Below are positions 4,004-31,100 of a stretch of DNA of 64,000 nt, one piece after another. The stretch is from assembly GCA_030748635.1 (NCBI GenBank), contig JASMLP010000135.1:11862-75861 (forward strand), read 5' to 3'. This DNA is from Planctomycetota bacterium (lineage in GTDB: Bacteria; Planctomycetota; JACQVV01; JASMLP01). The position numbers were made by a program, and so were the translations under genes. The notes below the pieces were generated by a model that saw only the letters and a list, made by a program, of their open reading frames with translations, ran no database searches and was not told where the DNA came from. Position 1 is the first letter of the stretch, and each line of letters begins with the position of its first letter.

Positions 4004-5694
4004 CAGGCCGATCCCAAAAACGTGAAAAGATGATTCACTACCTGGGGATCTTGATATCCGCTCTGACCGTGCGTGTCTTCACAGCGCATGCCCGTCTTGT
4101 TGTCCCGGAAGATTCGGTTCATTACATCGACCTGGCACGGGATGTCACTGAAAACGGTTTGGGCCCCCTTCTCTCCCACTCCTCTCACCCTCTCTATCCG
4201 TTGCTTCTGGCGGGTACCCAGTGGGTCACTGGCGACTTTCTACTTGCGGGCCGAATCCTGGGAATCGTTCTCGGAGTTCTCGTGGTTCTATCCATAACAG
4301 CCAGCACACGTCTGCTCTTTGGAAGTACCGCCAGCTTCTTTGTCGGTATGTTTGCCGCCCTTTCTCCTTATCTCGCCAGGCAAGCTGGCGAGATACTTCC
4401 GGAACAACTCTCCGTCGCGTCGGCGTCCCTGGCCCTATATTTCGTTCTTCGAGCAGAGCGGAAACACTCCCTCATCTTCGCAGGACTAGCCGGCATCTTC
4501 TCGGGCCTATTCTTTCTCACCCGTCCGGAAGGTCTGATTTTCCCATTCGGACTTGCTCTGGGACTCTCCATCCCCTTCATTCGAACTCGATCTTGTCAAC
4601 AGAATCTGCTGCCGCCGCTGTCCCTTCTTCTTGGATTCACCTTGGTCGCCAGCCCTTACTGGATCGCTCTCAGTCTCGACAATGGATACCCCACACTCTC
4701 TCGTCGAAAGATCGAACGCATTTTCAGCACCTATCGGTTTCAAGATCAGATGAGTCCCCCGGTACGAGCTTTCCCCGAACCCCGCCCCGCCCCACCACCG
4801 TGGTATCAACGAGAGCAACACCTTCTCTCCAGGTTGAGACATCTCCTCAAGCCTTCGACTCCCGGTTCCGCCCGAAGTGATCCCTCGGTTTGGCTCCTAT
4901 CGACCCCCACTGGTCCGCTCATTCATTACCCAGGAAAACAGGTCAAACAAACCATCCACTCCACTCTTTTACAGAGTCGCCATCAGAGGAAAAAGACTTT
5001 CGAATTACCCAAAACGATTTTTGAAGCCTGTCACCCCATTCTTTTCCTGCTAGGCTTATGGGGCCTTTGGGGGGCGCTTCGAGGAAATTGGCCAGCTGGG
5101 CGGTCCGTCCTGATCACCTCGATTGGCCTCCAGATCCTCCTCCTGTCCATGGTCAATTTTCAGCAAGGTTATCTATCCCGACGACACGCTCTGGTCTTTG
5201 CCGTCATCTTCTTGCCTTGGTCCGGGATCGCTTTCCAGAAAGGTGTTCGAAGGATCTTTTCTTCTCTGAATTTCCCACGTCCTCGAAAAGCGCTCTGGAT
5301 CTCCTTCGCGCTCGTCCTGGCCATCCTCAGCGGAAAAACCCTGAAGGTAAAGGGAACGAGTAACCTCTCGGAACGCCGGGTGGGTGAATGGATCGCGACC
5401 CACTCCCCGAACCAGAAGCTGTTAACCAATGTCACACGAGTTGCCCTCTATGCCAAATGCCCCTACGAACGACTCCCCACGCAAGGGGGGTATGCTCAAC
5501 TTCTCCGGATCTGTCTGGAAAAGGAGATCGACCTGATTGCGGTGGCGGGAGAAGGGTATTTCCTCATTGAAAGACTCGTATCATTCCAGTGGTTGATTCC
5601 GATCGATACCGAATCTTCCCCTCCCGGCGAGAGAGGAAAGCCGGTACACCTCTATCGGGTTCGTTTCCCAACCCAAACCGACAGAGGATCCTAA
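4000..5694 (+). CDS. Second ArnT/PMT-like integral-membrane glycosyltransferase (paralog of upstream gene)
   Basis: 564 aa polytopic membrane protein. The first periplasmic loop carries EDSVHYIDLARDV, the conserved acidic loop typical of PMT_2/ArnT-family GT-C enzymes. It is translationally coupled to the upstream paralog. Confidence 0.6.
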   Translation: MTGRSQKREKMIHYLGILISALTVRVFTAHARLVVPEDSVHYIDLARDVTENGLGPLLSHSSHPLYPLLLAGTQWVTGDFLLAGRILGIVLGVLVVLSITASTRLLFGSTASFFVGMFAALSPYLARQAGEILPEQLSVASASLALYFVLRAERKHSLIFAGLAGIFSGLFFLTRPEGLIFPFGLALGLSIPFIRTRSCQQNLLPPLSLLLGFTLVASPYWIALSLDNGYPTLSRRKIERIFSTYRFQDQMSPPVRAFPEPRPAPPPWYQREQHLLSRLRHLLKPSTPGSARSDPSVWLLSTPTGPLIHYPGKQVKQTIHSTLLQSRHQRKKTFELPKTIFEACHPILFLLGLWGLWGALRGNWPAGRSVLITSIGLQILLLSMVNFQQGYLSRRHALVFAVIFLPWSGIAFQKGVRRIFSSLNFPRPRKALWISFALVLAILSGKTLKVKGTSNLSERRVGEWIATHSPNQKLLTNVTRVALYAKCPYERLPTQGGYAQLLRICLEKEIDLIAVAGEGYFLIERLVSFQWLIPIDTESSPPGERGKPVHLYRVRFPTQTDRGS

Positions 5695-5759
5695 AAGACA
5701 CGAAACCTCTGGAGAAAAGAAGTTGAATTCACCCTTGCGCAGGGGATAAATAACAATCG

Positions 5760-7206: not shown

Positions 7207-10200
7207 ATGTCCGACCCTTCGAAAACCGAATCATCCAGCACTCGATCGACGGTCCCTCCTCACCAGGATCAGCGATTTGAAAAAATTGTTTTACGGAACG
7301 ATCTCCTGAGTCCGGAAACACTAGGTGAAGCTCGCACTCGGTGGAACAAGCAGTGCCGTAACGGCTCGACCCAGTCCTTTCCTGAGATGCTTGTCGCCGA
7401 GGGACATATAACCACCAAGCAAGCCGCAGCCATTTCAAAGCGCCTGGTACGCCAGATCGCTGGTTACGTCCTGCTCGACAAGATCGGTGTTGGAGGCATG
7501 GGAGCCGTCTATCGAGCGGAACAAAAAAGCCTGGACAAGGTTGTGGCTCTCAAAATCCTTCCTGCCAAACTCGCCGCTGATGAGGATTTCATCAAACGGT
7601 TCGAGCGGGAAGCTCAATCCCTGGCGAAACTCAACCATCCTCATATCGTCCAGGCAATCGACTTTGGCAAAGACAAGGGCCTCTACTACATTTCGATGGA
7701 ATATGTTCCCGGCCAGAGCCTTCTCGACCTGATGAAGAGAGAGAACAAACTTTCCGAAATTCGTGCACTCGAGATCGCGCTTCAAATCGCGATGGCCCTC
7801 GAACATGCATGCGAACACGGCGTGATACATCGGGACATCAAACCGGAGAATATTCTGCTGACCGAGGAGGGAGATGCAAAAATCACCGACTTCGGACTCG
7901 CCAAGGAACCGGAAGCGGGAAACAACGCATTCCGAACAACCGCAGGCCTGACCTTCGGCACCCCCCACTACATGTCACCGGAGCAGGCGGAAGGCCTACC
8001 CGACCTAGACACCCGATCAGACATCTATTCTCTCGGCGCAACTCTCTACCACATGTTGACCGGCAAAACCCCTTTTCGCGGGGATAGCGACGCCGAAATC
8101 ATGACCATGCACCTCGACGCCGAACCCGATGACCCGAGACTGTACTGCCCGGATCTATCCAGCCCGACCGCTACGATGCTCCGCAAAATGATGGCCAAAC
8201 GTCCACGATCTCGTTACCAGCATCCTCATGAAGTATCGCAAAGCATTTTGAAAATTCTTAGCGATGAATTCTCCAGCAGTCAACTCGATCTTCTTACTCG
8301 GCTTCCTTCAGCCACCGGAAAATCTTCCAAGCGCATCCTCCCCACGACCCTCTCCGATTCCAGAAAACCGATTCCCCCTCAACTCACTCTGGCCCTCGCA
8401 GGCGTCATCCTGGCAGGTGTACTTGCAATCGTAATTTTCTCCAACCGATCAACCCCTCCCCCCCCCTCCCCGACTCCTCCTCCCCCCCTCCCATCTGCTC
8501 CCTTGATCGGCATCAATCCGGAATCTCAGGATTTAACTCCTCAAGAACTTCAGGAACGAAATGCCCAAGATCTGTGGAAGCAATACCAAGCCGAGATCAA
8601 AAACTCGCGAGATCACCCTCAACATTCGCTCGAGATCTTGGACCAGATCGTAAAGCTCCATCCAGGACGCTGGGCCGACCAAGCACTTCAAGAAAAGAAG
8701 AGCCTCCTGAGTCAGATAAAATCGGACCAGGCGTTACAACCCCTTACCGCCCGGACGAACACCCTGATCAAGCAACACCAATACGCGAAAGCGATTCACT
8801 TGCTTGGCAGTTTCCAGAAGCAATACCCAGGAACTCCGGCGTCCGAAACTGCCAGCCAACGTATTCTGGAAATCAGATCCTTCTGGAACCGAAGTATCGA
8901 TGAATGGCTCGAGAAAGCCCGCGAATCAGAAAGCAAGGGGGATCTGCAGAATGCGCTGTCGCTCTATGCGCTCCTCGAAATACACGGAAATGCCGAAGGC
9001 CAATCCCTCGGCAAGGCCAACCGTTTGCGGATTCAAACGCTTCGAAATACGCCCAAAAAGAATCCCCTCCAGAAGGAACCTCCAAAACCTTCACGCGGCC
9101 AACCCGACCCCGGCCCCCTCTACGCCAAACTCGTCAACGCTCTCCTCGAGCCCGTTCGATCCCGGAAATACAACGGTGCCCTCCAATTCCTTCAAAGTAT
9201 CGAGGCCGACAGCAACCGAACGCCAGAACACCCGGCCGCCTCCCAACTCCACCAGGACCTCACCAGCATCCAGTCCGTTCTGGAAAAAGCCTCCGAAGCG
9301 TTAAAAAACAACGCCCCCCCTTCTCGAGCTTTTTACATCGATGGTTCTCGCCGCATCCTGGATTCCTTCCGAGACAACCGACTTCACTGGCAACGAAAAT
9401 CACTACCTACCCCCTTATCCGAGCTTCCCACCCGCTACCTCGCGGAACTCGCCGAAACCGGAGGAGCGTCTCCGAAAAGCCTTGGACTCTTCTTGATAGC
9501 CGAAGGCGTTTCGGAAGTCGGACAAGAGATGCTCGAGAAGGCTCAGGTCCCCCAAGCGGAAAAGTCCTGGCGGATTCGTGACTGGTGCGCCCTTCGAGAC
9601 CGCAATCATCCTCGTGAAACCGAAGCGGCCGAGATCGTCCGCTCTCTGCGCAAATCTATCCAGAAGAATTCGTGGAAAGCTTCTCGCCCTCCGATGAGGC
9701 TGATCCGAACCCAATATGCCGACACTTATACAGCGACCCGAGAAGGCGCAGAACTCTGGGATCTTTATCTCGAAATGGGCGCGAAATTATATCCGGTAAA
9801 AAAATTCTTCTCCGGCTCGACCACACAAACGAATCAATCCGTCAAGATCCAGTACCTCTTCACCAAGGAGAACCACCGCCAGGACTGGCGATCAATAGGA
9901 GGAAAAACCTGGACTCCGAGCCCCAAAGGCTGGCACGGAAAAGGAAAGATCCTGCTGCAAAGAGGACACTGGAAAGAAGTTCTGGTCAGTGCGCGCTGGG
10001 AAGCTCACCCCAACCGTGGAGCCGCAAGCATTCTCTTTGGATGGCAAGATCCGGAAAACTACTACTTTTTCGGTCCCCAGTACGATAACCAGAAACTGAA
10101 CACATCACATTTCCACTACGATGAGAACGTTGACAAGTCCATCCCGAAACCTCTGAAAGGCCGCACAACCCAGAAACCTTTCCGAGGATTATTCCCCAGC

Positions 10201-10902
10201 AAAAGCACGCGTCACATCGCGAGAGTCCGCACTCGGCCCAAAGAGATCACAACCTACATCGGCCAAGCCATCGTCAACAAGATTAACGAGCCGAATCCAA
10301 CGGAAGGGAAAATCGGCTTTACCTCCACGAGTTTTCGCATTCTGGAACGGGTAGAAATTGTCGGGACCCTGAACTCCGAATGGAAAATTCAGAAGTCGAA
10401 AACCCTTGTCCTCGCTGAAGAACTGATGGAAGAGTTTGGCTTTTCCAGCGGCAACTATCGATCCGGCTTCCAGGCGACCCTCTACAATTCCACGACCCTC
10501 GATTCCATGAAAGAAGTGCGTCTTGATCCCAGGATCGAATTCAACTGGAATGAAGATCGCCCCTCTCCCAAGCTTCCCGCCGACCGATTTTCTATTCGTT
10601 GGAATGGACACCTCCTGATCCCGAAATCGGGCACCTATGAATTTCAAACCCGCAGTGACGACGGAGTCCGCCTGTACCTGAACAACAAGCGGGTCATCGA
10701 CCACTGGGACCAACATGGGCCAGAAAAGGACTCTTACCGAATCCACCTCGAGCAAGGCCTGGTCCCCATCCAACTGGAATATTTTGAACAGGGGGGAGGA
10801 GCGACGATTTCTCTACAATGGAAATGGGCAGAACAGTCCGAGTGGATTCCCGTTTCCTGGCCCTATATCTTCGTACTCCAGCCATCCAAGACCCGACGAT
10901 GA
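7207..10902 (+). CDS. Transmembrane Hanks-type Ser/Thr protein kinase with extracytoplasmic TPR-like, lectin-like and PA14 domains
   Basis: 1231 aa. The N-terminus has a T2SS-E-N/MshEN-like helical motif (LLSPETLGEARTRW...MLVAEGHITTKQ). It is followed by a kinase core (GVGGMGAVYRA...VALKIL, HRDIKPENILL, DFGLA, GTPHYMSPE). One TM helix (LALAGVILAGVLAIVIF) is followed by a Pro-rich linker and a long TPR-like region. The C-terminal PA14-like domain reads RFSIRWNGHLLIPKSGTYEFQTRSDDGVRLYLNNKRVIDHWDQHG. Confidence 0.85.
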   Translation: MSDPSKTESSSTRSTVPPHQDQRFEKIVLRNDLLSPETLGEARTRWNKQCRNGSTQSFPEMLVAEGHITTKQAAAISKRLVRQIAGYVLLDKIGVGGMGAVYRAEQKSLDKVVALKILPAKLAADEDFIKRFEREAQSLAKLNHPHIVQAIDFGKDKGLYYISMEYVPGQSLLDLMKRENKLSEIRALEIALQIAMALEHACEHGVIHRDIKPENILLTEEGDAKITDFGLAKEPEAGNNAFRTTAGLTFGTPHYMSPEQAEGLPDLDTRSDIYSLGATLYHMLTGKTPFRGDSDAEIMTMHLDAEPDDPRLYCPDLSSPTATMLRKMMAKRPRSRYQHPHEVSQSILKILSDEFSSSQLDLLTRLPSATGKSSKRILPTTLSDSRKPIPPQLTLALAGVILAGVLAIVIFSNRSTPPPPSPTPPPPLPSAPLIGINPESQDLTPQELQERNAQDLWKQYQAEIKNSRDHPQHSLEILDQIVKLHPGRWADQALQEKKSLLSQIKSDQALQPLTARTNTLIKQHQYAKAIHLLGSFQKQYPGTPASETASQRILEIRSFWNRSIDEWLEKARESESKGDLQNALSLYALLEIHGNAEGQSLGKANRLRIQTLRNTPKKNPLQKEPPKPSRGQPDPGPLYAKLVNALLEPVRSRKYNGALQFLQSIEADSNRTPEHPAASQLHQDLTSIQSVLEKASEALKNNAPPSRAFYIDGSRRILDSFRDNRLHWQRKSLPTPLSELPTRYLAELAETGGASPKSLGLFLIAEGVSEVGQEMLEKAQVPQAEKSWRIRDWCALRDRNHPRETEAAEIVRSLRKSIQKNSWKASRPPMRLIRTQYADTYTATREGAELWDLYLEMGAKLYPVKKFFSGSTTQTNQSVKIQYLFTKENHRQDWRSIGGKTWTPSPKGWHGKGKILLQRGHWKEVLVSARWEAHPNRGAASILFGWQDPENYYFFGPQYDNQKLNTSHFHYDENVDKSIPKPLKGRTTQKPFRGLFPSKSTRHIARVRTRPKEITTYIGQAIVNKINEPNPTEGKIGFTSTSFRILERVEIVGTLNSEWKIQKSKTLVLAEELMEEFGFSSGNYRSGFQATLYNSTTLDSMKEVRLDPRIEFNWNEDRPSPKLPADRFSIRWNGHLLIPKSGTYEFQTRSDDGVRLYLNNKRVIDHWDQHGPEKDSYRIHLEQGLVPIQLEYFEQGGGATISLQWKWAEQSEWIPVSWPYIFVLQPSKTRR

Positions 10903-11819
10903 CTGAGCAATGTATTGAAATTCGCGACCACCAGATAGTCATACTGGATCTCAACCCGGATCGACTGGACGCCGCTCTTCGAGAACACGAGACCGACTGG
11001 CTGCCACGCGCCACCCCAAACGCCACTCTTATCGTCTCGGAGATTGACGACCCACTGCTCCCCCAAACACTTGGAGTGATCGCTGAGTGCTGCCGTCGAG
11101 CAGTCATCGCCGGATTCCGAATCCACGTTCAGGTCACTCCAGAGCAGCAGCAAGCTTTCGAGCGGGCGGGAGCTCGAGATCTGACCTTTCGGGTCGTCTC
11201 CAGTCCGAAAAAGTCGACTGAAAAGTCACCTTCCACCGTCCTCCCCGCCGTTCGTGCCCAGAAGCCAGAAGCTTCCTCTCCGGCGAGTCCAAATCCACTG
11301 ACATTTCTCAAGGCCGCAGCCTCCATCGACGATCTCGCTCCTGACGAAAAGGGCAATATCACTCTTTTTTTGACCAACATGCCCGATCTGGATGACCGTG
11401 AATCCCAGATCCTCTCCCCCTTGGTCGTCTCTCGCGAGCGATCTAAATATTTCGGTCGCCAAGAGAAGGAACCGGAGCGTAGAGACACCATGCGTCGAAA
11501 TATCGGAGACGCAATAGTCCTTTTTCGTGCCGGGCCAGAAGGAAAAGATTGGCGCGGCCCCGTACTCGATCTCTCCGCGAAGGGGATCCAGTTCATCACC
11601 GACCAGAATCTCGAATTGGGGGATAAGGTTCAGGTCGCCCTCGATCTTCCCAGCATGATCGAAAAGCTCACTTCAGAGGGGAAGGTTATCTGGAAACGCA
11701 TCATCGAAAAAAAAGGGAAAACCTTTTACCGGATTGGCGCCAGTTTCGTATCTCCCTCTCGATCCTTTGTGGAAAAGCTACTCGAGAAAATCGGAGACTC
11801 CGAGCCTCAATCCTCCTGA
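10899..11819 (+). CDS. STAS-like N-terminal domain fused to C-terminal PilZ (c-di-GMP binding) domain
   Basis: I place the start at the ATG at 10899, which overlaps the kinase TGA as ATGA. The PilZ motifs are RRDTMRR (the RxxxR motif) and DLSAKGIQF (the DxSxxG motif). The N-terminal ~100 aa (IVILDLNPDRLDAALRE...RIHVQVTPEQQQAFERAGARDLTF) resemble a STAS/anti-sigma-antagonist fold. Confidence 0.6.
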   Translation: MTEQCIEIRDHQIVILDLNPDRLDAALREHETDWLPRATPNATLIVSEIDDPLLPQTLGVIAECCRRAVIAGFRIHVQVTPEQQQAFERAGARDLTFRVVSSPKKSTEKSPSTVLPAVRAQKPEASSPASPNPLTFLKAAASIDDLAPDEKGNITLFLTNMPDLDDRESQILSPLVVSRERSKYFGRQEKEPERRDTMRRNIGDAIVLFRAGPEGKDWRGPVLDLSAKGIQFITDQNLELGDKVQVALDLPSMIEKLTSEGKVIWKRIIEKKGKTFYRIGASFVSPSRSFVEKLLEKIGDSEPQSS

Positions 11820-26091: not shown

Positions 26092-26958
26092 ATGAGTCCT
26101 GATGTAGGATCCATCGCTTCAGCGAATCAGACCGTTCCTGATGGAACGACTGATCGCGTCGCTGAAGATCAAGCCACGCAACGTTACGCGTTGCTGGAAG
26201 ATCTTCGTGTTCTCACCCGAAGCCAGCTTTCCCAAGCCCTCGACGCCACCGGCGAAGTCGTTAGTGATCTCGAACGAGTGGGCGAAGGTATTCAAGACAC
26301 ACTCCACGATCTACGCAGTCGTATCGGCAAAGAACGAGATCTCTCGTGCCAAATCGAAGGGTCATCCCGTGATGTACTCGAACTGGCAGCCACAGGAACC
26401 GAGGAGGCCCTCCGAACCCTGTTCGATGCCCGAATCAAAATCGATGCTCTGGAGCACCAGATCAACGAACTCTGCGACCAAAACAGCGATCTCCAGCAAT
26501 CCAACCGAGAGCTCGAACAAAACCTCTCCCAGGAAAGAGAAAACAACCAGAGCCTCGAGCTACGGCAAGAGCAGTTACGCAGGCAACATCAGGAAAAAAT
26601 TATCCGTCTCCAGGAATGTATCGATCAACAAGAAACGGCTCTCGAAGAGCAGGTCGAAAAATTTCAACTCACCGCCGAGGCACTCGAAAATTCCAAAAAC
26701 GTGGAGATCGAATTTCGGAATCAACTTTCCGATCGCGACTCCCACATCGAATCTCTTCAGCAGGAGATTGCGACTCAGAGCCAATCCATTTCCGATCTGG
26801 AAGAAGAGATCGTTCAGACCCGGCGCGAAACGGCACAAGCCATCGAATCTTTCATGAACCTGGAAGAATCTCTCAAAACCGGAGCCAAAGCCAAAGCCCA
26901 TCTGCGCATTCTGTACGAAAAATCCCGTGAAGGGAAAGAAAAGACGGGAACGGCGTAA
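26092..26958 (+). CDS. Coiled-coil protein (Glu/Gln/Leu-rich), no enzymatic domain recognised
   Basis: 288 aa with continuous heptad-like, E/Q/L/R-rich low-complexity sequence. Its stop overlaps the next gene's start (TAATG). Confidence 0.55.
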   Translation: MSPDVGSIASANQTVPDGTTDRVAEDQATQRYALLEDLRVLTRSQLSQALDATGEVVSDLERVGEGIQDTLHDLRSRIGKERDLSCQIEGSSRDVLELAATGTEEALRTLFDARIKIDALEHQINELCDQNSDLQQSNRELEQNLSQERENNQSLELRQEQLRRQHQEKIIRLQECIDQQETALEEQVEKFQLTAEALENSKNVEIEFRNQLSDRDSHIESLQQEIATQSQSISDLEEEIVQTRRETAQAIESFMNLEESLKTGAKAKAHLRILYEKSREGKEKTGTA

Positions 26959-29654
26959 TGGCACAACACTCTTATCAGCGGAAAACGTCGCCAGAAGAGC
27001 CCAAAGCTCAAATCGACACCGGAGAAATCAGCCAGAACCTCGATGACGCCATTGCGGGCCTTCAGCAAATGCGCAGCACGATTCACCGATGTGAAGAGGA
27101 ACTGGACGAACGAATACGTGCCTCAGAAACCGGTCACGAAGCGGCAATCGACGCGCTCGAGTCCATCCCTGAACAATCCCAGGAGATATTGCACTCCAGC
27201 ACTTCATCGATCGACTCCATCGCAGGCACAATCGATTCGATCAGCCTTCGCACCGAGGAGGCGTTACGAACTTTTGAACAGCATTCACGCGAAGAACAAA
27301 AGTCCTGGAACATCAAAGTTCAGGATGAAAAACGTATCCGATTAGAACTCGAAGAACGTGTTCGAGCCCTGGACACCTCACTCCATGAAGCGCTCGAACA
27401 GAAAAACGAACAATTCGAAAAGCTGACCCGACTTCAAGAGATTCTGACGCATCGAGAACTCGAAGAGCGCAAGCTCGTCGAACGGATCACCCATCTTCAG
27501 GCAGAAATCGAGAAGCTTAAATCCGAACAGAACGATTTGACCCAGGATTTGCAGCGTTCTCAGATCCAACTCGAGGAATCCAATCGATCTCGATCCCAAC
27601 TTGAAAATCGACTTTCTGAAAAAGAGAGCGAACTGGATGAATCGAGGAAGCGCCTCGCTCAATTTCTGGCCGAAACCGAGGCCTCCGGACGCCCCCCAAC
27701 CGAGATCCAAATAGAGCCCACAGAAACACGCTCCGAAATTTTTGCCCTCGAGGAGAAGTACAAAAACAGTGAGGAAAAGATTCTCACCCTCACCGAAGAG
27801 CGCAACCGACTCCTGACGGAAAAAGCCAAACTCGAAAATGATCTTTCGCTTTTGCAAGCACAGGAGGCTCTCTCCCCTCCGCCGACCTCCGCCGACAAAG
27901 CCCTGCCTCCTTCAAGCACTCCCGAAGCCCAAGTCGCCCCCTACGCCCCCTCAGAAGGTGAAACAGAAGACCCGGTAGAGGAGCGAGACTTCACCCGCGA
28001 ACAGATTCATCACCTGAACGAGCAACTCACTCGTACTGAATCGGAACGCTCCCATCTGACCGGACAAATATCCAAAATGGATCACTCCCTCAGGGAGGTC
28101 AGCGAAGAGAACCAACGACTACGCGAACGCCTCGAGCAAAGAACCGACGAACTGGATGAACTTCAGAAGACAAGCGCCGACATGCTGAACCAGTCAAACC
28201 GGCGAGAAGCGCTCTCCCATTACCAAGACCAGATCGCCAAGCTTGAGCAAGAGAGAAATTCGGACACTCAAAAAATTCAGGACCTCGAAAGTCGCCTCCA
28301 AAATACCGACCAAGAGCGCGAAGAATCCTCTCGCGACCTGAATGCGACCAAAGAAACATTGCTCAATGTTTTGCGCAAAAAAGTGGACCTTGAAGTCCAG
28401 GTCCGAAAGATGCGGAATCAATCCGATCAGTTTCAGGAATTAAAGCAACAGTTCAACACGAGTCGGCATGAACGCGGCCTGGCAACCACACGCGCGAATA
28501 CCCTCAACGCCCTTCTCGCCAAGACTTTACAGAAGAAGAAAGAACTCGAACAAGAGCTACACCGTTTGCGTTCCGAACTTGAAACCAAAACCGAAGATCT
28601 GGAGCAGAATGCCAGCGGCATCGATCTTCTCCGAAACCGAGTTTCATCTCTCCAGAAAGATCGCCGTGAAGCGTCGAAGCGAGCCAACGTCCTCGAAAAG
28701 CAACTCGGCAAGAAATTTCCCGCCATGGCAGAAGCCGCCAAGATTGGGCAAGAACTCATCGAGGGCGACACTTTCAAAAAGCTTGTTTTCACTTTCGACT
28801 TTCTCTGGGACTCTCAGCAAGGATATCCACTACTGGATGTTCAGGGCCTTGGCGCCATCATTCGCAGAATCAGCGAAGGCTTGAGGCGAGACCCAGCCGG
28901 TGTTCTCGAAAGAACCAACTACACCGGACGAGGGTACCTGAAGGGACACAGCCTCGAGGTTGCCAAGCTTTCCGTCTATATCGGTATGCATCTGGGTTAT
29001 CAAGCGTCCAACCTTGAAGTCATAGGAATCGCGGCTTTGTTGCACGACCTTGGCATGATTCAGGTTCCCAGGTCTATTCTCGACAAATCCACCTCGCTGG
29101 ACGACTCCGACCGGGAAGTCATCCACAAGCATTGTGCGGCCAGCGCCTCGATTTTTCGGGAACTCGAAGTCGAAGCCAATCTTCCCTCGCAGATCGTAGC
29201 CCGAGTGATCGAAGAACACCACGAGAGGATGGATGGCAGCGGTTATCCCAACCAGAAAAAAGGCGATGAAATCCACCCATTCAGCCGCATCATCAGCATT
29301 GCAGATGCCTACACTGCCATGATTTCTCGTCGTCCTCACCGGGAAGCGATGCTTCCTCATGATGCACTCCGGACCATTCAGCAAGAAGCCCAAAGCGGGG
29401 CATTGGATCCGGAAATCGCCGAAGCTTTTACACAAGCCCTTTCCACTTTTCCCATCGGAAGCTTGGTTCAACTCTCCACCGGGGAGATCGGTATCGTTGT
29501 CACGGCCCATCCCGACGACCCCGAGCGGCCTGTCGTCCGCTTAACGGAAGGGGAAGATGGGAAACTTCTCGAACACCCCATCTACACCGATCTTTCCAAC
29601 GACCGCAGCCTTTCCATTCGGCGACCGATCGACCCTCGTTCGATCCGTTCTTGA
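26958..29654 (+). CDS. Long coiled-coil protein with C-terminal HD-GYP domain (putative c-di-GMP phosphodiesterase)
   Basis: 898 aa. About 600 aa of SMC-like coiled coil are followed by an HD domain (LLHDLGMIQVP) and HHERMDGSGYP, i.e. the HD-GYP signature. Confidence 0.8.
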   Translation: MAQHSYQRKTSPEEPKAQIDTGEISQNLDDAIAGLQQMRSTIHRCEEELDERIRASETGHEAAIDALESIPEQSQEILHSSTSSIDSIAGTIDSISLRTEEALRTFEQHSREEQKSWNIKVQDEKRIRLELEERVRALDTSLHEALEQKNEQFEKLTRLQEILTHRELEERKLVERITHLQAEIEKLKSEQNDLTQDLQRSQIQLEESNRSRSQLENRLSEKESELDESRKRLAQFLAETEASGRPPTEIQIEPTETRSEIFALEEKYKNSEEKILTLTEERNRLLTEKAKLENDLSLLQAQEALSPPPTSADKALPPSSTPEAQVAPYAPSEGETEDPVEERDFTREQIHHLNEQLTRTESERSHLTGQISKMDHSLREVSEENQRLRERLEQRTDELDELQKTSADMLNQSNRREALSHYQDQIAKLEQERNSDTQKIQDLESRLQNTDQEREESSRDLNATKETLLNVLRKKVDLEVQVRKMRNQSDQFQELKQQFNTSRHERGLATTRANTLNALLAKTLQKKKELEQELHRLRSELETKTEDLEQNASGIDLLRNRVSSLQKDRREASKRANVLEKQLGKKFPAMAEAAKIGQELIEGDTFKKLVFTFDFLWDSQQGYPLLDVQGLGAIIRRISEGLRRDPAGVLERTNYTGRGYLKGHSLEVAKLSVYIGMHLGYQASNLEVIGIAALLHDLGMIQVPRSILDKSTSLDDSDREVIHKHCAASASIFRELEVEANLPSQIVARVIEEHHERMDGSGYPNQKKGDEIHPFSRIISIADAYTAMISRRPHREAMLPHDALRTIQQEAQSGALDPEIAEAFTQALSTFPIGSLVQLSTGEIGIVVTAHPDDPERPVVRLTEGEDGKLLEHPIYTDLSNDRSLSIRRPIDPRSIRS

Positions 29655-29798: not shown

Positions 29799-31100
29799 AT
29801 GCACGTAGATTGCATGCGTGCTTGGGAAGCGGTGCTTGTTGCCATCGAGGTCGAACTCGGCGAGGCCCCCACCCATCTGTGGTTCGCGAATAGTCAACTC
29901 ATCTTGAGTGAGAATGATGAACTTCGGATATTGTTTCCGAATGCGTTCACTCGTGACTGGGTTCAACGCAATCACCTTCACAGAATCGAGCGACTTCTGG
30001 AAACGGTTCTCGGTCATTCAGTGCATGTCTCCTTTGGCCTGAACGAAACCCCACTCCCATCTCGTTCTTCGACACAAACCAGGAACCGGTCTCCAAGGAA
30101 CCGAAAACGCTGGAATCTTCAGGTAGAGCCCATTGCTGGCCCCTTCAACCAGGTCGCACTTTCATCCCTGCGTCACGCTCTGGAATTTCCCGGAGAAACC
30201 CAACCCATTTTGATCTACGGGGAAAACGGGTTGGGAAAAACCACTCTTCTGGACTGGTACGCAAGGGCCCTGAAATTTCGCCATCCTGGGTGGAGAATCA
30301 AACACCTTCGTGGCTCCACATACTCCCGTCGCTTCCAGCAAGCCCTCGTAGCGGGACAAATCCGGACCTTCCGACAAGTCTACCGGAAACTGGACGCGCT
30401 TCTTGTAGACGATATCCACGAACTATGCGGCAAGATGGGCACTCAACAAGAACTCATCCACACAATGGACCACCTGATCCGGCGTCAAGCCCCTATCCTT
30501 TTCACCAGTCGACATCAGCCCACAGATCTGGAACTGTTCTCTGAACCGTTACGGTGTCGCTTGCGAGGGGGACTTTCTCTCCCCATCGAACGCCCATGCC
30601 CTCAATCCATTCGGGATTACTTGAGCATTCGCTGCGGTTCCTCCGGCATCCACTTGGATTCTGAAGTCCTGGATTATCTATCGGAACAATTCAGAGGCCC
30701 ATTCTCACAGATCGACCATCTTGTCAAACACCTCTCTACTTTGAGTCAACAAAGTAATCGCCCTCCAGGAAAACGTATCGTCAAACGCGCGATCGAACTG
30801 TACATGGAACGGATCGAGAATCGGACTCTGGCTGGGATTTGCCGGATTACGGCTGAATTCTTTTCTTTCGATGTAGAATATTTGCGCGGTCGAACTCGTG
30901 AACGATCAATCACCTCTGCCCGAAGAGTCGCCATGTATCTGGCATCTGAACTCACGGAAGCCTCTCCTCGCGAAATCGGACGATATTTTAGCGATCGATC
31001 CCCTGCTACCGTGAAAGGAGCTTGTCGATGGGTTCGCTCTCACTTGAAGCAGGATTCTGCCTTTCGTGAACAGTGTAACGCCCTTCGAAAGATCCTCTGA
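29799..31100 (+). CDS. dnaA: Chromosomal replication initiator DnaA (divergent)
   Basis: Domain I-like N-terminus (LWFANSQLILSENDELRILFPNAFTRDWVQ). AAA+ core with Walker A GENGLGKTTLL and Walker B LLVDDIHEL. Domain IV reads SARRVAMYLASELTEASPREIGRYFSDRSPATV. Confidence 0.7.
   Translation: MHVDCMRAWEAVLVAIEVELGEAPTHLWFANSQLILSENDELRILFPNAFTRDWVQRNHLHRIERLLETVLGHSVHVSFGLNETPLPSRSSTQTRNRSPRNRKRWNLQVEPIAGPFNQVALSSLRHALEFPGETQPILIYGENGLGKTTLLDWYARALKFRHPGWRIKHLRGSTYSRRFQQALVAGQIRTFRQVYRKLDALLVDDIHELCGKMGTQQELIHTMDHLIRRQAPILFTSRHQPTDLELFSEPLRCRLRGGLSLPIERPCPQSIRDYLSIRCGSSGIHLDSEVLDYLSEQFRGPFSQIDHLVKHLSTLSQQSNRPPGKRIVKRAIELYMERIENRTLAGICRITAEFFSFDVEYLRGRTRERSITSARRVAMYLASELTEASPREIGRYFSDRSPATVKGACRWVRSHLKQDSAFREQCNALRKIL

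What the first reader, a model, noticed from the sequence alone, without database searches (positions are those of the whole stretch)
26092..29654. Tandem coiled-coil proteins, the second carrying an HD-GYP phosphodiesterase: cytoskeleton-like c-di-GMP effector?
Two translationally coupled genes (TAATG overlap) encode a 288-aa pure coiled-coil protein and an 898-aa protein. The larger one joins about 600 aa of SMC/intermediate-filament-like coiled coil to an intact HD-GYP domain (HD...HHERMDGSGYP). Placing a c-di-GMP hydrolase on a long filament-forming scaffold would localise second-messenger turnover, for example to a pole or the division site. The window also encodes a PilZ receptor and a REC-GGDEF*-EAL regulator, so c-di-GMP signalling is prominent here.
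Basis: partly seen in the sequence, partly recalled or inferred. Interest (0 to 1): 0.6.

Follow-up and report, generated by a model that had tools for sequence, protein, structure and literature searches.

The report
Coiled-coil HD-GYP phosphodiesterase beside dnaA
A marine planctomycete encodes an apparently active cyclic-di-GMP-degrading enzyme on a roughly 600-residue coiled-coil stalk. It is made together with a small coiled-coil partner, always sits just upstream of a dnaA-like replication gene, and is most similar to enzymes fused to the chromosome-partition protein ParB.

Summary
Gene A (26092-26958, 288 aa) and gene B (26958-29654, 898 aa) overlap in TAATG. Both show purifying selection against a relative about 90% identical in DNA.

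- **Coiled coil:** A and B residues 1-600 have strong heptad periodicity (about 6 and 12 SD above shuffles). AlphaFold predicts very long helices.
- **Enzyme domain:** B residues 657-828 form an HD-GYP domain with all seven binuclear-type metal ligands, the GYP motif and the c-di-GMP-binding Lys. A five-strand beta domain follows.
- **Rarity:** among 1.84 billion representative proteins, only two other full-length clusters share coiled coil plus this HD-GYP. All are from uncultured Planctomycetota.

1. In every lineage with downstream sequence (4 of 4), the gene lies directly upstream of a divergent dnaA-like gene. The gap is 8-16 bp, or an overlap, in the distant relatives.
2. The closest other HD-GYP domains are Planctomycetota ParB-HD-GYP fusions.

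My best reading is a soluble, dimeric phosphodiesterase held on a coiled-coil scaffold and tied to replication or segregation. Activity, substrate, A-B pairing, localisation and the DnaA link are all inferred. It is a new variant of a known enzyme kind, of moderate interest.

The parts
26092..26958 (+). Gene A: a 288-aa soluble all-helical coiled-coil protein. It has a disordered N-terminus (1-19), helix 20-85, a short break, then one helix 104-284.
   Evidence: The ORF is. It has no Pfam family. Heptad periodicity is 0.398 against 0.223 +/- 0.027 in shuffles. The AF2 model has pLDDT 82. There are 48 synonymous and 23 non-synonymous codon differences against L007. No hydrophobic segment is present.
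26956..26960 (+). TAATG stop/start overlap that couples A and B.
   Evidence: It is read directly. It is conserved in L007 at about 90% nucleotide identity.
26958..29654 (+). Gene B: an 898-aa protein joining a long coiled coil to an HD-GYP domain. NCBI lists it as MDP7034902.1, 'HD domain-containing protein', from a Planctomycetota MAG.
27021..27872 (+). B residues 22-305: the N-terminal helical module (helices 22-68, 85-242, 258-305). It is variable or absent in distant relatives. Its layout resembles that of protein A.
   Evidence: The AF2 secondary structure is and the heptad profile. P0018 and P0020 carry only a short helical head here.
27873..27974 (+). B residues 306-339: a Pro-rich, low-confidence flexible linker.
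   Evidence: pLDDT is below 50 over 305-339. There is an indel here relative to L008.
27975..28715 (+). B residues 340-586: the second coiled-coil module (helices 340-409, 416-486, 494-586). Its C-terminal part is the family-conserved stalk, including the motif TKETLLNVLRKKVDLE.
   Evidence: It aligns with P0018 and P0020.
28716..28925 (+). B residues 587-656: a helical lead-in to the catalytic domain (FDFLWD..GYPLLD..LRRDPAGVLE). It is conserved in the family and in the ParB fusions.
   Evidence: The alignments are.
28926..29441 (+). B residues 657-828: the HD-GYP domain. Ligands are H664, H696, D697, H725, H754, H755 and D783. GYP is at 762-764. K710 corresponds to PmGH K235.
   Evidence: Pfam HD_5 matches at 2.8e-34. 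The PDB alignments are, the residue positions, and the Foldseek hits to HD-GYP structures. pLDDT is above 90.
29463..29630 (+). B residues 836-891: a C-terminal five-strand beta domain (PIGSLVQLSTGEIG...). It is shared by this whole branch of HD-GYP proteins. Its function is unknown.
   Evidence: The AF2 strands 836-839, 844-849, 859-864, 870-878 and 887-891 are. No Pfam model covers it.
29799..31100 (+). A divergent full-length dnaA immediately downstream, with no plus-strand terminator-like site in between. In the distant relatives the linked gene starts 8-16 bp after, or overlaps, the HD-GYP gene.
   Evidence: Pfam finds DnaA_N, Bac_DnaA and Bac_DnaA_C. TIGR00362 scores 247 bits against a cut-off of 343.9. 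It aligns with 8btg at 3e-39.

Best explanation
**What it is.** B is a soluble, catalytically competent HD-GYP cyclic-dinucleotide phosphodiesterase. Its most likely substrate is c-di-GMP, and its metal centre is of the binuclear type.

**How it is built.**
- The catalytic domain sits at the end of a conserved coiled-coil stalk (about residues 340-590). The stalk probably zips two chains into a parallel dimer and sets the geometry of the two active sites.
- A flexible Pro-rich linker joins the stalk to a second, lineage-variable helical module (residues 20-305).
- That module probably docks the enzyme onto a partner. The most likely partner is the co-translated small coiled-coil protein A, which has the same layout of a head helix followed by one very long helix.

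**What it does.** The set of small coiled-coil gene, coiled-coil HD-GYP gene and dnaA-like gene is kept together across deeply diverged Planctomycetota. The nearest relatives of the catalytic module are fused to ParB DNA-binding domains. I therefore propose that this scaffolded enzyme lowers c-di-GMP in step with, or next to, the replication and segregation machinery, rather than at a pole or a septum.

**Shown.**
- the gene structure;
- the coiled-coil character;
- the intact catalytic residues;
- the conserved synteny;
- the identity of the nearest relatives.

**Inferred.**
- dimerisation;
- A-B pairing;
- the substrate;
- co-transcription with dnaA;
- any physical or regulatory link to the chromosome.
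For: **Catalytic residues.**
- All are canonical in B and in P0018.
- K710 aligns with PmGH K235, which the HD-GYP census paper names as a c-di-GMP-binding residue (10.1101/2021.11.05.467447).

**Fold.** The model matches c-di-GMP-bound DvhD, PmGH and PA4781.

**c-di-GMP in this organism.** The window also encodes an intact PilZ protein and an EAL protein, so the organism uses c-di-GMP.

**Coiled coil.** Heptad statistics and AF2 helices support it. There are no transmembrane segments.

**Coupling of A and B.** The TAATG overlap is conserved.

**Small upstream ORFs in relatives.** L010 and L009 each carry a small coiled-coil ORF directly upstream. Their heptad z-scores are 6.8 and 6.3, and their GC1/2/3 profile looks coding.

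**Linkage to dnaA.**
- A dnaA-like gene lies directly downstream in the window and L006, and in L010, L009 and L013, which is 4 of 4 lineages.
- In L010 the gap is 16 bp, in L009 it is 8 bp, and in L013 the genes overlap.
- These lineages are far apart: B is only 34-36% identical and GC content ranges from 53% to 70%.
- A 632-647-aa gene has been inserted upstream of the trio in L009 and L010 without splitting it.

**Nearest relatives.**
- In an exhaustive HMMER scan, the best four non-family hits with a single HD-GYP domain are P0023, P0025, P0027 and P0028. All four are ParB_N fusions; P0023 and P0027 also carry HTH_ParB.
- 13 of the top 150 hits are ParB fusions.
- Where named, they come from Planctomycetota.

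Against: **No experiments.** No activity, interaction or localisation has been measured.

**The dnaA synteny may be uninformative.** The neighbourhood upstream is also collinear in L010 (MlaFED, a 511-aa gene, the TPR/peptidase gene). The dnaA adjacency could therefore be inherited gene order without any functional coupling.

**Weaker linkage in the window itself.** The B-dnaA gap is 144 bp, not 8-16 bp.

**No sign of an origin here.** DnaA boxes are not enriched. GC skew does not switch anywhere in the window.

**The small partners are not demonstrably homologous.**
- The three lineages give no BLAST similarity to each other.
- A profile comparison of A with the N-terminus of B gives a probability of 1.2%. 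A-B pairing rests on gene order and shape alone.

**Tree support is poor.**
- The coiled-coil family is monophyletic in a BLOSUM62 neighbour-joining tree.
- It is monophyletic in only 5-11% of p-distance bootstraps.
- *Sister to ParB fusions* should therefore be read as *same unresolved branch*.

**Relaxed catalysis in part of the family.** Two family members have QD in place of HD (P0020 and L013).

**Small sample.** There are only four lineages, and all are metagenomic.
Confidence: 0.45

Rival explanations
1. The coiled coil is only a long dimerisation and signal-transmitting stalk, an extended S-helix. A is a regulatory partner that switches the phosphodiesterase on or off. There is no spatial targeting and no link to replication, and the dnaA adjacency is inherited gene order.
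For: - HD-GYP domains are commonly preceded by an S-helix, and their N-terminal regions usually act as sensors (10.1101/2021.11.05.467447).
- Only the stalk next to the catalytic domain is conserved across lineages. The distal module is variable.
- The flanking genes are also collinear between the window and L010.
- The window shows a 144-bp gap before dnaA and no enrichment of DnaA boxes.
Against: - About 250 to 600 residues of coiled coil is far longer than a roughly 40-residue S-helix. By a crude coiled-coil measure, B is the extreme outlier among about 290 related HD-GYP proteins: 428 residues, against fewer than 100 for nearly all others.
- Gaps of 8-16 bp, or an overlap, with dnaA in three distant lineages suggest co-transcription.
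- An insertion upstream left the trio intact.
- The nearest relatives carry ParB DNA-binding modules.
Confidence: 0.3
2. The enzyme degrades a different nucleotide, for example 3'3'-cGAMP or pGpG, rather than c-di-GMP.
For: - The best sequence match among solved structures is the cGAMP-specific V-cGAP3 (5z7c, E = 5.9e-32, against 3.5e-21 for PmGH).
- The two proteins share Tyr at the position of PmGH E185.
- This branch has HDxGM instead of the common HDxGK.
Against: - The advantage of V-cGAP3 is small per domain (88.8 against 78.5 bits). It is inflated by V-cGAP3's second, degenerate domain.
- By structure, the best matches are the c-di-GMP enzymes DvhD and PmGH, and 5z7c ranks 15th.
- The Lys equivalent to PmGH K235 is present.
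- The window encodes PilZ and EAL proteins but no recognisable cGAMP synthase.
Confidence: 0.15
3. B is mainly a structural or receptor protein. Its HD-GYP domain binds the nucleotide but hardly turns it over, like Bd1817, and the coiled coil is the functional part.
For: - Some family members and neighbouring proteins have lost the His of the HD motif. P0020 and L013 have Q, and P0025 and P0035 have C.
- This suggests catalysis is dispensable in parts of the branch.
Against: - B itself, its 92%-type relative and P0018 keep every ligand and the full GYP motif.
- Bd1817 is only a weak match (E = 1.9e-4).
Confidence: 0.1

Closest known systems
HD-GYP class II c-di-GMP phosphodiesterases with solved structures (PmGH 4MCW, PA4781 4R8Z, DvhD 9RBZ, V-cGAP3 5Z7C)
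   Same: - The catalytic domain has the same fold, the HD and HHExxDGxGYP motifs and the metal ligands.
- It has the Lys that corresponds to PmGH K235.
   Different: - Known members carry REC, GAF, PAS, DUF3391 or membrane sensor domains at the N-terminus. The census paper does not mention coiled-coil, ParB or FtsZ partners at all.
- B has about 600 residues of coiled coil instead, plus a C-terminal beta domain.
- The third-metal Glu (PmGH E185) is Tyr in B, as it is in V-cGAP3.
ParB_N(+HTH_ParB)-HD-GYP fusion proteins of Planctomycetota (P0023, P0025, P0027, P0028, P0035, P0044, P0045 and others)
   Same: - They are the nearest relatives of the whole C-terminal part of B: the helical lead-in, the HD-GYP domain and the beta domain.
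- Identity is 36-41%.
- They share the HDxGM variant and come from the same phylum.
   Different: - Their N-terminus is a ParB DNA-binding module, not a coiled coil.
- Their genomic context differs. They lie after rpmA in three loci and as a tandem pair in one, never next to dnaA.
- I found no description of them in the paper library.
Spatially targeted c-di-GMP phosphodiesterases, such as Shewanella PdeB bound to the polar landmark HubP, and the polar enzymes of Caulobacter
   Same: The concept is the same: a turnover enzyme is tethered to a cellular landmark so that the messenger is controlled locally or in step with the cell cycle (PMC9061725 and PMC10212136, listed).
   Different: - Those enzymes are EAL or GGDEF-EAL proteins that are recruited through a separate landmark protein.
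- In B the putative scaffold is built into the enzyme itself.
- Localisation of B is untested.
Bacterial coiled-coil-rich and SMC-like proteins (crescentin, FilP and Scy types; the arms of SMC, MukB, JetC and Rad50)
   Same: B has long heptad-repeat helices, and it gives weak profile and fold matches to SMC-type arms.
   Different: - There is no ATPase head and no hinge.
- All scores lie far below family cut-offs: 58 bits against 567 for TIGR02168.
- The similarity is compositional and does not show homology.

Membership tests
HD-GYP domain (class II cyclic-di-GMP phosphodiesterase) | HD dyad that binds the metals. | tested here: met
   H696-D697 align with PmGH H221-D222.
HD-GYP domain (class II cyclic-di-GMP phosphodiesterase) | The HHExh(D/N)GxGYP motif. 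| tested here: met
   H754-H755-E756-R-M-D759-G760-S-G762-Y763-P764. The motif definition is taken from 10.1101/2021.11.05.467447.
HD-GYP domain (class II cyclic-di-GMP phosphodiesterase) | The remaining ligands of the binuclear centre (equivalents of PmGH H189, H250 and D305). | tested here: met
   H664, H725 and D783.
HD-GYP domain (class II cyclic-di-GMP phosphodiesterase) | The acidic ligand of a third metal (PmGH E185). It defines the trinuclear subgroup only. | tested here: not met
   The aligned position is Y660. V-cGAP3 also has Tyr there, and 117 of 158 related sequences have Tyr. This places B in the binuclear-type subgroup. It does not exclude membership of the HD-GYP family.
HD-GYP domain (class II cyclic-di-GMP phosphodiesterase) | The conserved Lys that contacts c-di-GMP (PmGH K235). 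| tested here: met
   K710. The role of this Lys is stated.
HD-GYP domain (class II cyclic-di-GMP phosphodiesterase) | The HD-GYP fold. | tested here: met
   The AF2 model has pLDDT above 90 in this region. Foldseek finds 9rbz at 1e-9, 4mcw at 3.5e-9 and 4r8z at 9e-8.
HD-GYP domain (class II cyclic-di-GMP phosphodiesterase) | Hydrolysis of c-di-GMP. | not testable with these tools
   This needs an enzyme assay.
Coiled-coil-rich or intermediate-filament-like cytoskeletal proteins | Long heptad-repeat alpha-helical rod. | tested here: met
   The AF2 helices reach up to 158 residues in B and 181 residues in A.
Coiled-coil-rich or intermediate-filament-like cytoskeletal proteins | Nucleotide-independent self-assembly into filaments. 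| not testable with these tools
   This needs in vitro assembly or imaging.
SMC / MukB / Rad50 family | ABC ATPase head halves at both termini, with a hinge or zinc hook. | tested here: not met
   There is no SMC_N or hinge hit. TIGR02168 scores 58 bits against a cut-off of 567, over arm regions only.
ParB-HD-GYP fusion family (Planctomycetota) | An N-terminal ParB_N domain, with or without HTH_ParB. | tested here: not met
   B has no ParB hit, and phmmer with a ParB module does not hit it. The two groups share only the C-terminal HD-GYP module.
Anti-phage defence systems (PADLOC) | A match to a defence-system protein model. | tested here: not met
   Only weak coiled-coil matches to JetC and LmuB arms were found, at E = 1e-7 or worse.

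The most novel reading that the evidence does not exclude
One branch of HD-GYP enzymes in Planctomycetota, a phylum that divides without FtsZ, has been recruited to the chromosome. In one form it is fused to ParB DNA-binding modules. In the other it sits on a long coiled-coil scaffold, is made with a small coiled-coil partner, and is co-expressed with a divergent DnaA. Cyclic-di-GMP, or a related nucleotide, would then be degraded on or next to the nucleoid, as part of the control of replication initiation or segregation.
Probability: 0.2. Interest if true: 0.8.

Novelty: new variant of a known kind. Interest (0 to 1): 0.55.

Why it matters
HD-GYP enzymes are normally wired to sensor domains. 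Apart from Caulobacter, little is known about how c-di-GMP is tied to the bacterial cell cycle, and I found nothing on this for Planctomycetota. That phylum has unusual, FtsZ-independent division.

Two things together give a concrete, testable entry point into second-messenger control of replication or segregation in this phylum:
- a phosphodiesterase built onto a coiled-coil scaffold and kept next to dnaA;
- relatives fused to ParB.

The ParB-HD-GYP fusion family seems to be undescribed in the literature I could search, and it may be the more tractable object.

If the dnaA link turns out to be inherited gene order only, what remains is an unusual but unsurprising domain architecture of a well-known enzyme.

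Tried and rejected
1. **Word-index protein searches.** These were lossy for this coiled-coil query. They returned only the identical protein, a 92% relative of A, and generic HD-GYP hits. The profile search did not even recover P0001 or P0018. The exhaustive HMMER scan was needed.
2. **Genome-contig scan.** It returned only generic HD-GYP domains from other phyla and no close genome.
3. **Metagenome-contig scan with a family-specific profile.** It returned one extra locus (L013).
4. **Paralogy of A with the N-terminus of B.** BLASTP gave E = 0.016, with a shared TEEALRT motif. hhalign on profiles gave a probability of 1.2%. I rejected this as unsupported; only the helix layout is similar.
5. 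**Homology among the small upstream ORFs of the three lineages.** There were no BLAST hits.
6. **An origin of replication at this locus.** DnaA-box matches numbered 11, against 7.2 +/- 2.7 expected. Cumulative GC skew is monotonic. I rejected this.
7. **A defence-system reading.** PADLOC gave only coiled-coil noise.
8. **Promoter and terminator scan.** Counts were at chance level. It is useful only for the absence of a plus-strand terminator-like site between B and dnaA.
9. **Tree bootstraps.**
   - A run with Kimura distances produced invalid values and is disregarded.
   - p-distance bootstraps give only 5-11% support for monophyly of the coiled-coil family.
   - I therefore rely on hit ranking rather than on tree topology.
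10. **afdb50 fold search.** The library was not available.
11. **Rfam and tRNA scans of the window.** Nothing was found.
12. **Literature searches.** I searched for coiled-coil HD-GYP, ParB with HD-GYP, HD-GYP with DnaA, and Planctomycetes with c-di-GMP. No description of this architecture turned up.

Full report
**1. The observation**

A spans 26092..26958 (288 aa) and B spans 26958..29654 (898 aa), both on the plus strand. The stop codon of A and the start codon of B overlap as TAATG at 26956-26960.

The window comes from an uncultured marine planctomycete:
- B is identical to NCBI MDP7034902.1, 'HD domain-containing protein [Planctomycetota bacterium]', on an 87-kb contig.
- B is also identical to a JGI metagenome protein.
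- Fragments of B occur in TARA mesopelagic data.

A related strain, about 90% identical in DNA, carries the same pair with the same TAATG overlap (L007 and L008, the latter a TARA scaffold). Against it, synonymous codon differences outnumber non-synonymous ones in both genes:
- A: 48 against 23.
- First 314 codons of B: 52 against 34.

Both are therefore real genes under purifying selection.

**2. The coiled coil**

I measured enrichment of hydrophobic residues at heptad a/d positions, in the best register, over 35-residue windows.

| Region | Observed | Shuffled |
|---|---|---|
| A | 0.398 | 0.223 +/- 0.027 |
| B 1-620 | 0.442 | 0.219 +/- 0.018 |
| B 621-898 | 0.217 | 0.243 +/- 0.033 |

AlphaFold2 agrees.
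- A is a disordered tip, then helix 20-85, then a single helix 104-284 at pLDDT above 90.
- B has helices 22-68, 85-242, 258-305, 340-409, 416-486 and 494-586.
- In B a low-confidence Pro-rich stretch at 306-339 divides the region into two modules.

Neither protein has a hydrophobic segment long enough to span a membrane.

Profile matches to SMC, Rad50, ZapB, JetC and LmuB are all weak, cover arm regions only, and lie far below family cut-offs. They reflect composition, not homology.

**3. The HD-GYP domain**

Pfam HD_5 matches residues 661-820 at E = 2.8e-34. Alignment to solved structures and direct residue look-up give:
- H664, H696-D697, H725, H754-H755 and D783 at the seven ligand positions of the binuclear core;
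- the full HHERMDGSGYP motif;
- K710 at the position of PmGH K235, which the HD-GYP census paper names as a c-di-GMP-binding residue.

The extra Glu that binds a third metal in PmGH is Tyr (Y660) in B. V-cGAP3 and most of this branch also have Tyr there.

The modelled domain has pLDDT above 90. It matches DvhD (c-di-GMP-bound), PmGH, PA4781, Bd1817 and V-cGAP3 by Foldseek.

After the domain comes a confident five-strand beta domain (836-891). No Pfam model covers it, but it is shared by the whole branch.

The substrate cannot be read from sequence.
- The best sequence match in the PDB is the cGAMP-specific V-cGAP3, but the per-domain advantage over PmGH is only about 10 bits.
- By structure, the c-di-GMP enzymes rank first.
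- The window also encodes a PilZ protein with intact RxxxR and DxSxxG motifs.
- It also encodes a REC protein with a degenerate GGDEF and an intact EAL.

c-di-GMP is therefore the likeliest substrate.

**4. How common the architecture is**

I ran an exhaustive HMMER scan of 1.84 billion cluster representatives. It found more than 72,000 HD-GYP hits at E of 1e-10 or better. Only P0018 (537 aa) and P0020 (694 aa), plus a fragment of the window's own species (P0019), align through the coiled coil as well.

The shared part is the stalk nearest the enzyme (TKETLLNVLRKKVDLE...), then the helical lead-in (FDYLFD..GYPFLDF..LRxDPGSVLDL), the HD-GYP domain and the beta domain. A family-specific scan of metagenome contigs added one more locus, L013.

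By a crude coiled-coil measure, B is the extreme outlier among about 290 related HD-GYP proteins. The HD-GYP census paper lists REC, GAF, PAS, DUF3391 and membrane sensors as partners. It does not mention coiled-coil, ParB or FtsZ.

**5. Gene neighbourhood**

The relatives are distant. B is 34-36% identical, MlaE 55% and the TPR protein 38-42%. GC content is 53.5% in the window, against 62.6-69.6% in the relatives. Three things are nevertheless conserved.

*(a) A small coiled-coil ORF directly upstream.*
- L010 carries 9505..9987, which ends 13 nt before P0018.
- L009 carries 5111..5728.
- Both show heptad periodicity (z = 6.8 and 6.3) and a coding-like GC1/2/3 profile.
- They have no detectable sequence similarity to A or to each other. 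In L013 the region is cut off.

*(b) A dnaA-like gene directly downstream, in all four lineages that have downstream sequence.*

| Locus | Spacing between the HD-GYP gene and the dnaA-like gene |
|---|---|
| Window / L006 | 144 bp, with no plus-strand terminator-like site |
| L010 | 16 bp |
| L009 | 8 bp |
| L013 | overlap |

*(c) Upstream order.* The TPR/peptidase_MA gene lies upstream of the cluster in L009 and L010, and L010 also keeps the MlaFED genes and the 511-aa gene. A 632-647-aa gene has been inserted between the TPR gene and the trio in L009 and L010. The trio itself stays intact.

The linked DnaA is unusual.
- In the window it is full-length, with domains I to IV. It scores 247 bits on TIGR00362, against a cut-off of 343.9.
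- Its DNA-reading signature RDHTTV is replaced by RSPATV.
- In the relatives it lacks domain I (337-347 aa) and is only 24-34% identical to the window's copy.

Nothing suggests an origin of replication here.

**6. Nearest relatives of the catalytic module**

I set aside the family itself and proteins with several HD-GYP domains. The best hits of the exhaustive scan are then P0023, P0025, P0027 and P0028.
- All four carry an N-terminal ParB_N domain, and P0023 and P0027 also carry HTH_ParB.
- 13 of the top 150 representatives are such fusions.
- Those with names come from Planctomycetota or Planctomycetales MAGs.
- They share the helical lead-in and the HDxGM variant with B.
- They lie after rpmA in three loci and as a tandem pair in another.

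One further relative, P0176, is fused to a TubZ/FtsZ-like GTPase.

Tree support is mixed.
- A BLOSUM62 neighbour-joining tree puts the four coiled-coil proteins together, inside a clade that is mostly ParB fusions.
- p-distance bootstraps recover monophyly of the coiled-coil family in only 5-11% of replicates.

The safe statement is therefore *same unresolved branch*. I found no paper describing ParB-HD-GYP fusions.

**7. Interpretation**

*Shown:*
- a translationally coupled pair;
- true coiled coil in both proteins;
- a catalytically intact, binuclear-type HD-GYP domain;
- a rare architecture confined to a few uncultured Planctomycetota;
- conserved order of small coiled-coil ORF, coiled-coil HD-GYP gene and dnaA-like gene;
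- nearest relatives fused to ParB.

*Inferred:*
- The conserved stalk makes a parallel dimer of the enzyme.
- The distal module, beyond the flexible linker, binds protein A. A has the same layout of a head helix plus a very long helix, but no significant sequence similarity.
- The substrate is c-di-GMP.
- The enzyme works in step with, or next to, the replication and segregation machinery.

There is a precedent for this last idea. In Caulobacter, c-di-GMP drives the G1-S switch that permits replication initiation (review PMC11139211).

The main rival is that the coiled coil is merely a long dimerising and regulatory stalk, and that the dnaA adjacency is inherited gene order. The collinear flanks make this a serious alternative.

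**8. Verdict**

This is a new variant of a known enzyme kind, namely a known catalytic domain with an unreported N-terminal architecture and genomic context.

It is not categorically new. Interest is moderate (0.55). Most of that value rests on the chromosome link, which is still circumstantial, and on the apparently undescribed ParB-HD-GYP family found along the way.

Noticed in passing
L011:10001-11545, L012:7616-9160, L014:7001-8626 and 8925-10289, L015:7001-8512: This is a family of ParB_N(+HTH_ParB)-HD-GYP fusion proteins in Planctomycetota MAGs. Thirteen of the 150 best HD-GYP relatives of B belong to it. The fusions lie after rpmA in three loci and as a tandem pair in one. I found no description of them in the searchable literature. 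In P0023 the ParB GERR arginine patch reads GQLR, so CTP binding may be lost. That last point rests on my own reading of the sequence and was not tested.
   Followed up: partly
P0176 (686 aa, Logan contig of 2966 bp): In this protein a TubZ/FtsZ-like GTPase (Pfam Tubulin at 2.6e-12, TubZ-like_C at 5.4e-5) is fused, through a short helical linker, to the same type of HD-GYP plus beta-domain module.
   Followed up: no
window:29799-31100; L010:11630-12643; L009:8109-9140; L013:2560-3603: The dnaA linked to the HD-GYP gene is divergent. It scores below the TIGR00362 cut-off (247, 190 and 114 bits against 343.9 for the window, L010 and L009; L013 was not scored). The DNA-contacting signature RDHTTV reads RSPATV in the window. 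The copies in the relatives lack domain I and are only 24-34% identical to the window's copy. Whether it is the genome's only DnaA is unknown.
   Followed up: partly
L009:6017-8101 (P0020) and L013:270-2579: Two members of the coiled-coil HD-GYP family have QD instead of HD at the metal-binding dyad. Two ParB fusions (P0025, P0035) have CD. Catalysis may be altered or lost in parts of the branch.
   Followed up: partly
window:32258-34687: One 809-aa ORF joins a PSP1 (RicT-like) domain to a class I methionyl-tRNA synthetase catalytic domain, directly after holB. The JGI gene call on L006 shows the same fusion.
   Followed up: no
window:21189-22724 (minus strand): This 511-aa protein has no Pfam or NCBIfam match. 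It is conserved (36% identity) and syntenic between the Mla transporter genes and the TPR/peptidase_MA gene in L010.
   Followed up: no
window:1-64000: GC skew is negative in every 2-kb bin across the whole window (-0.07 to -0.27), with no switch. No tRNA or Rfam RNA family is detected in 64 kb.
   Followed up: yes
window:7207-10902: This 1231-aa protein joins an N-terminal Ser/Thr protein kinase domain to a C-terminal PA14 domain. The PilZ protein (10818-11819) follows it with an overlap.
   Followed up: no
L009:3086-5029 and L010:7512-9434: A 632-647-aa gene (zinc-ribbon-like N-terminus, weak 3-keto-disaccharide hydrolase/DUF1080 hits) lies between the TPR gene and the coiled-coil trio in the distant relatives. 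It is absent from the window.
   Followed up: no
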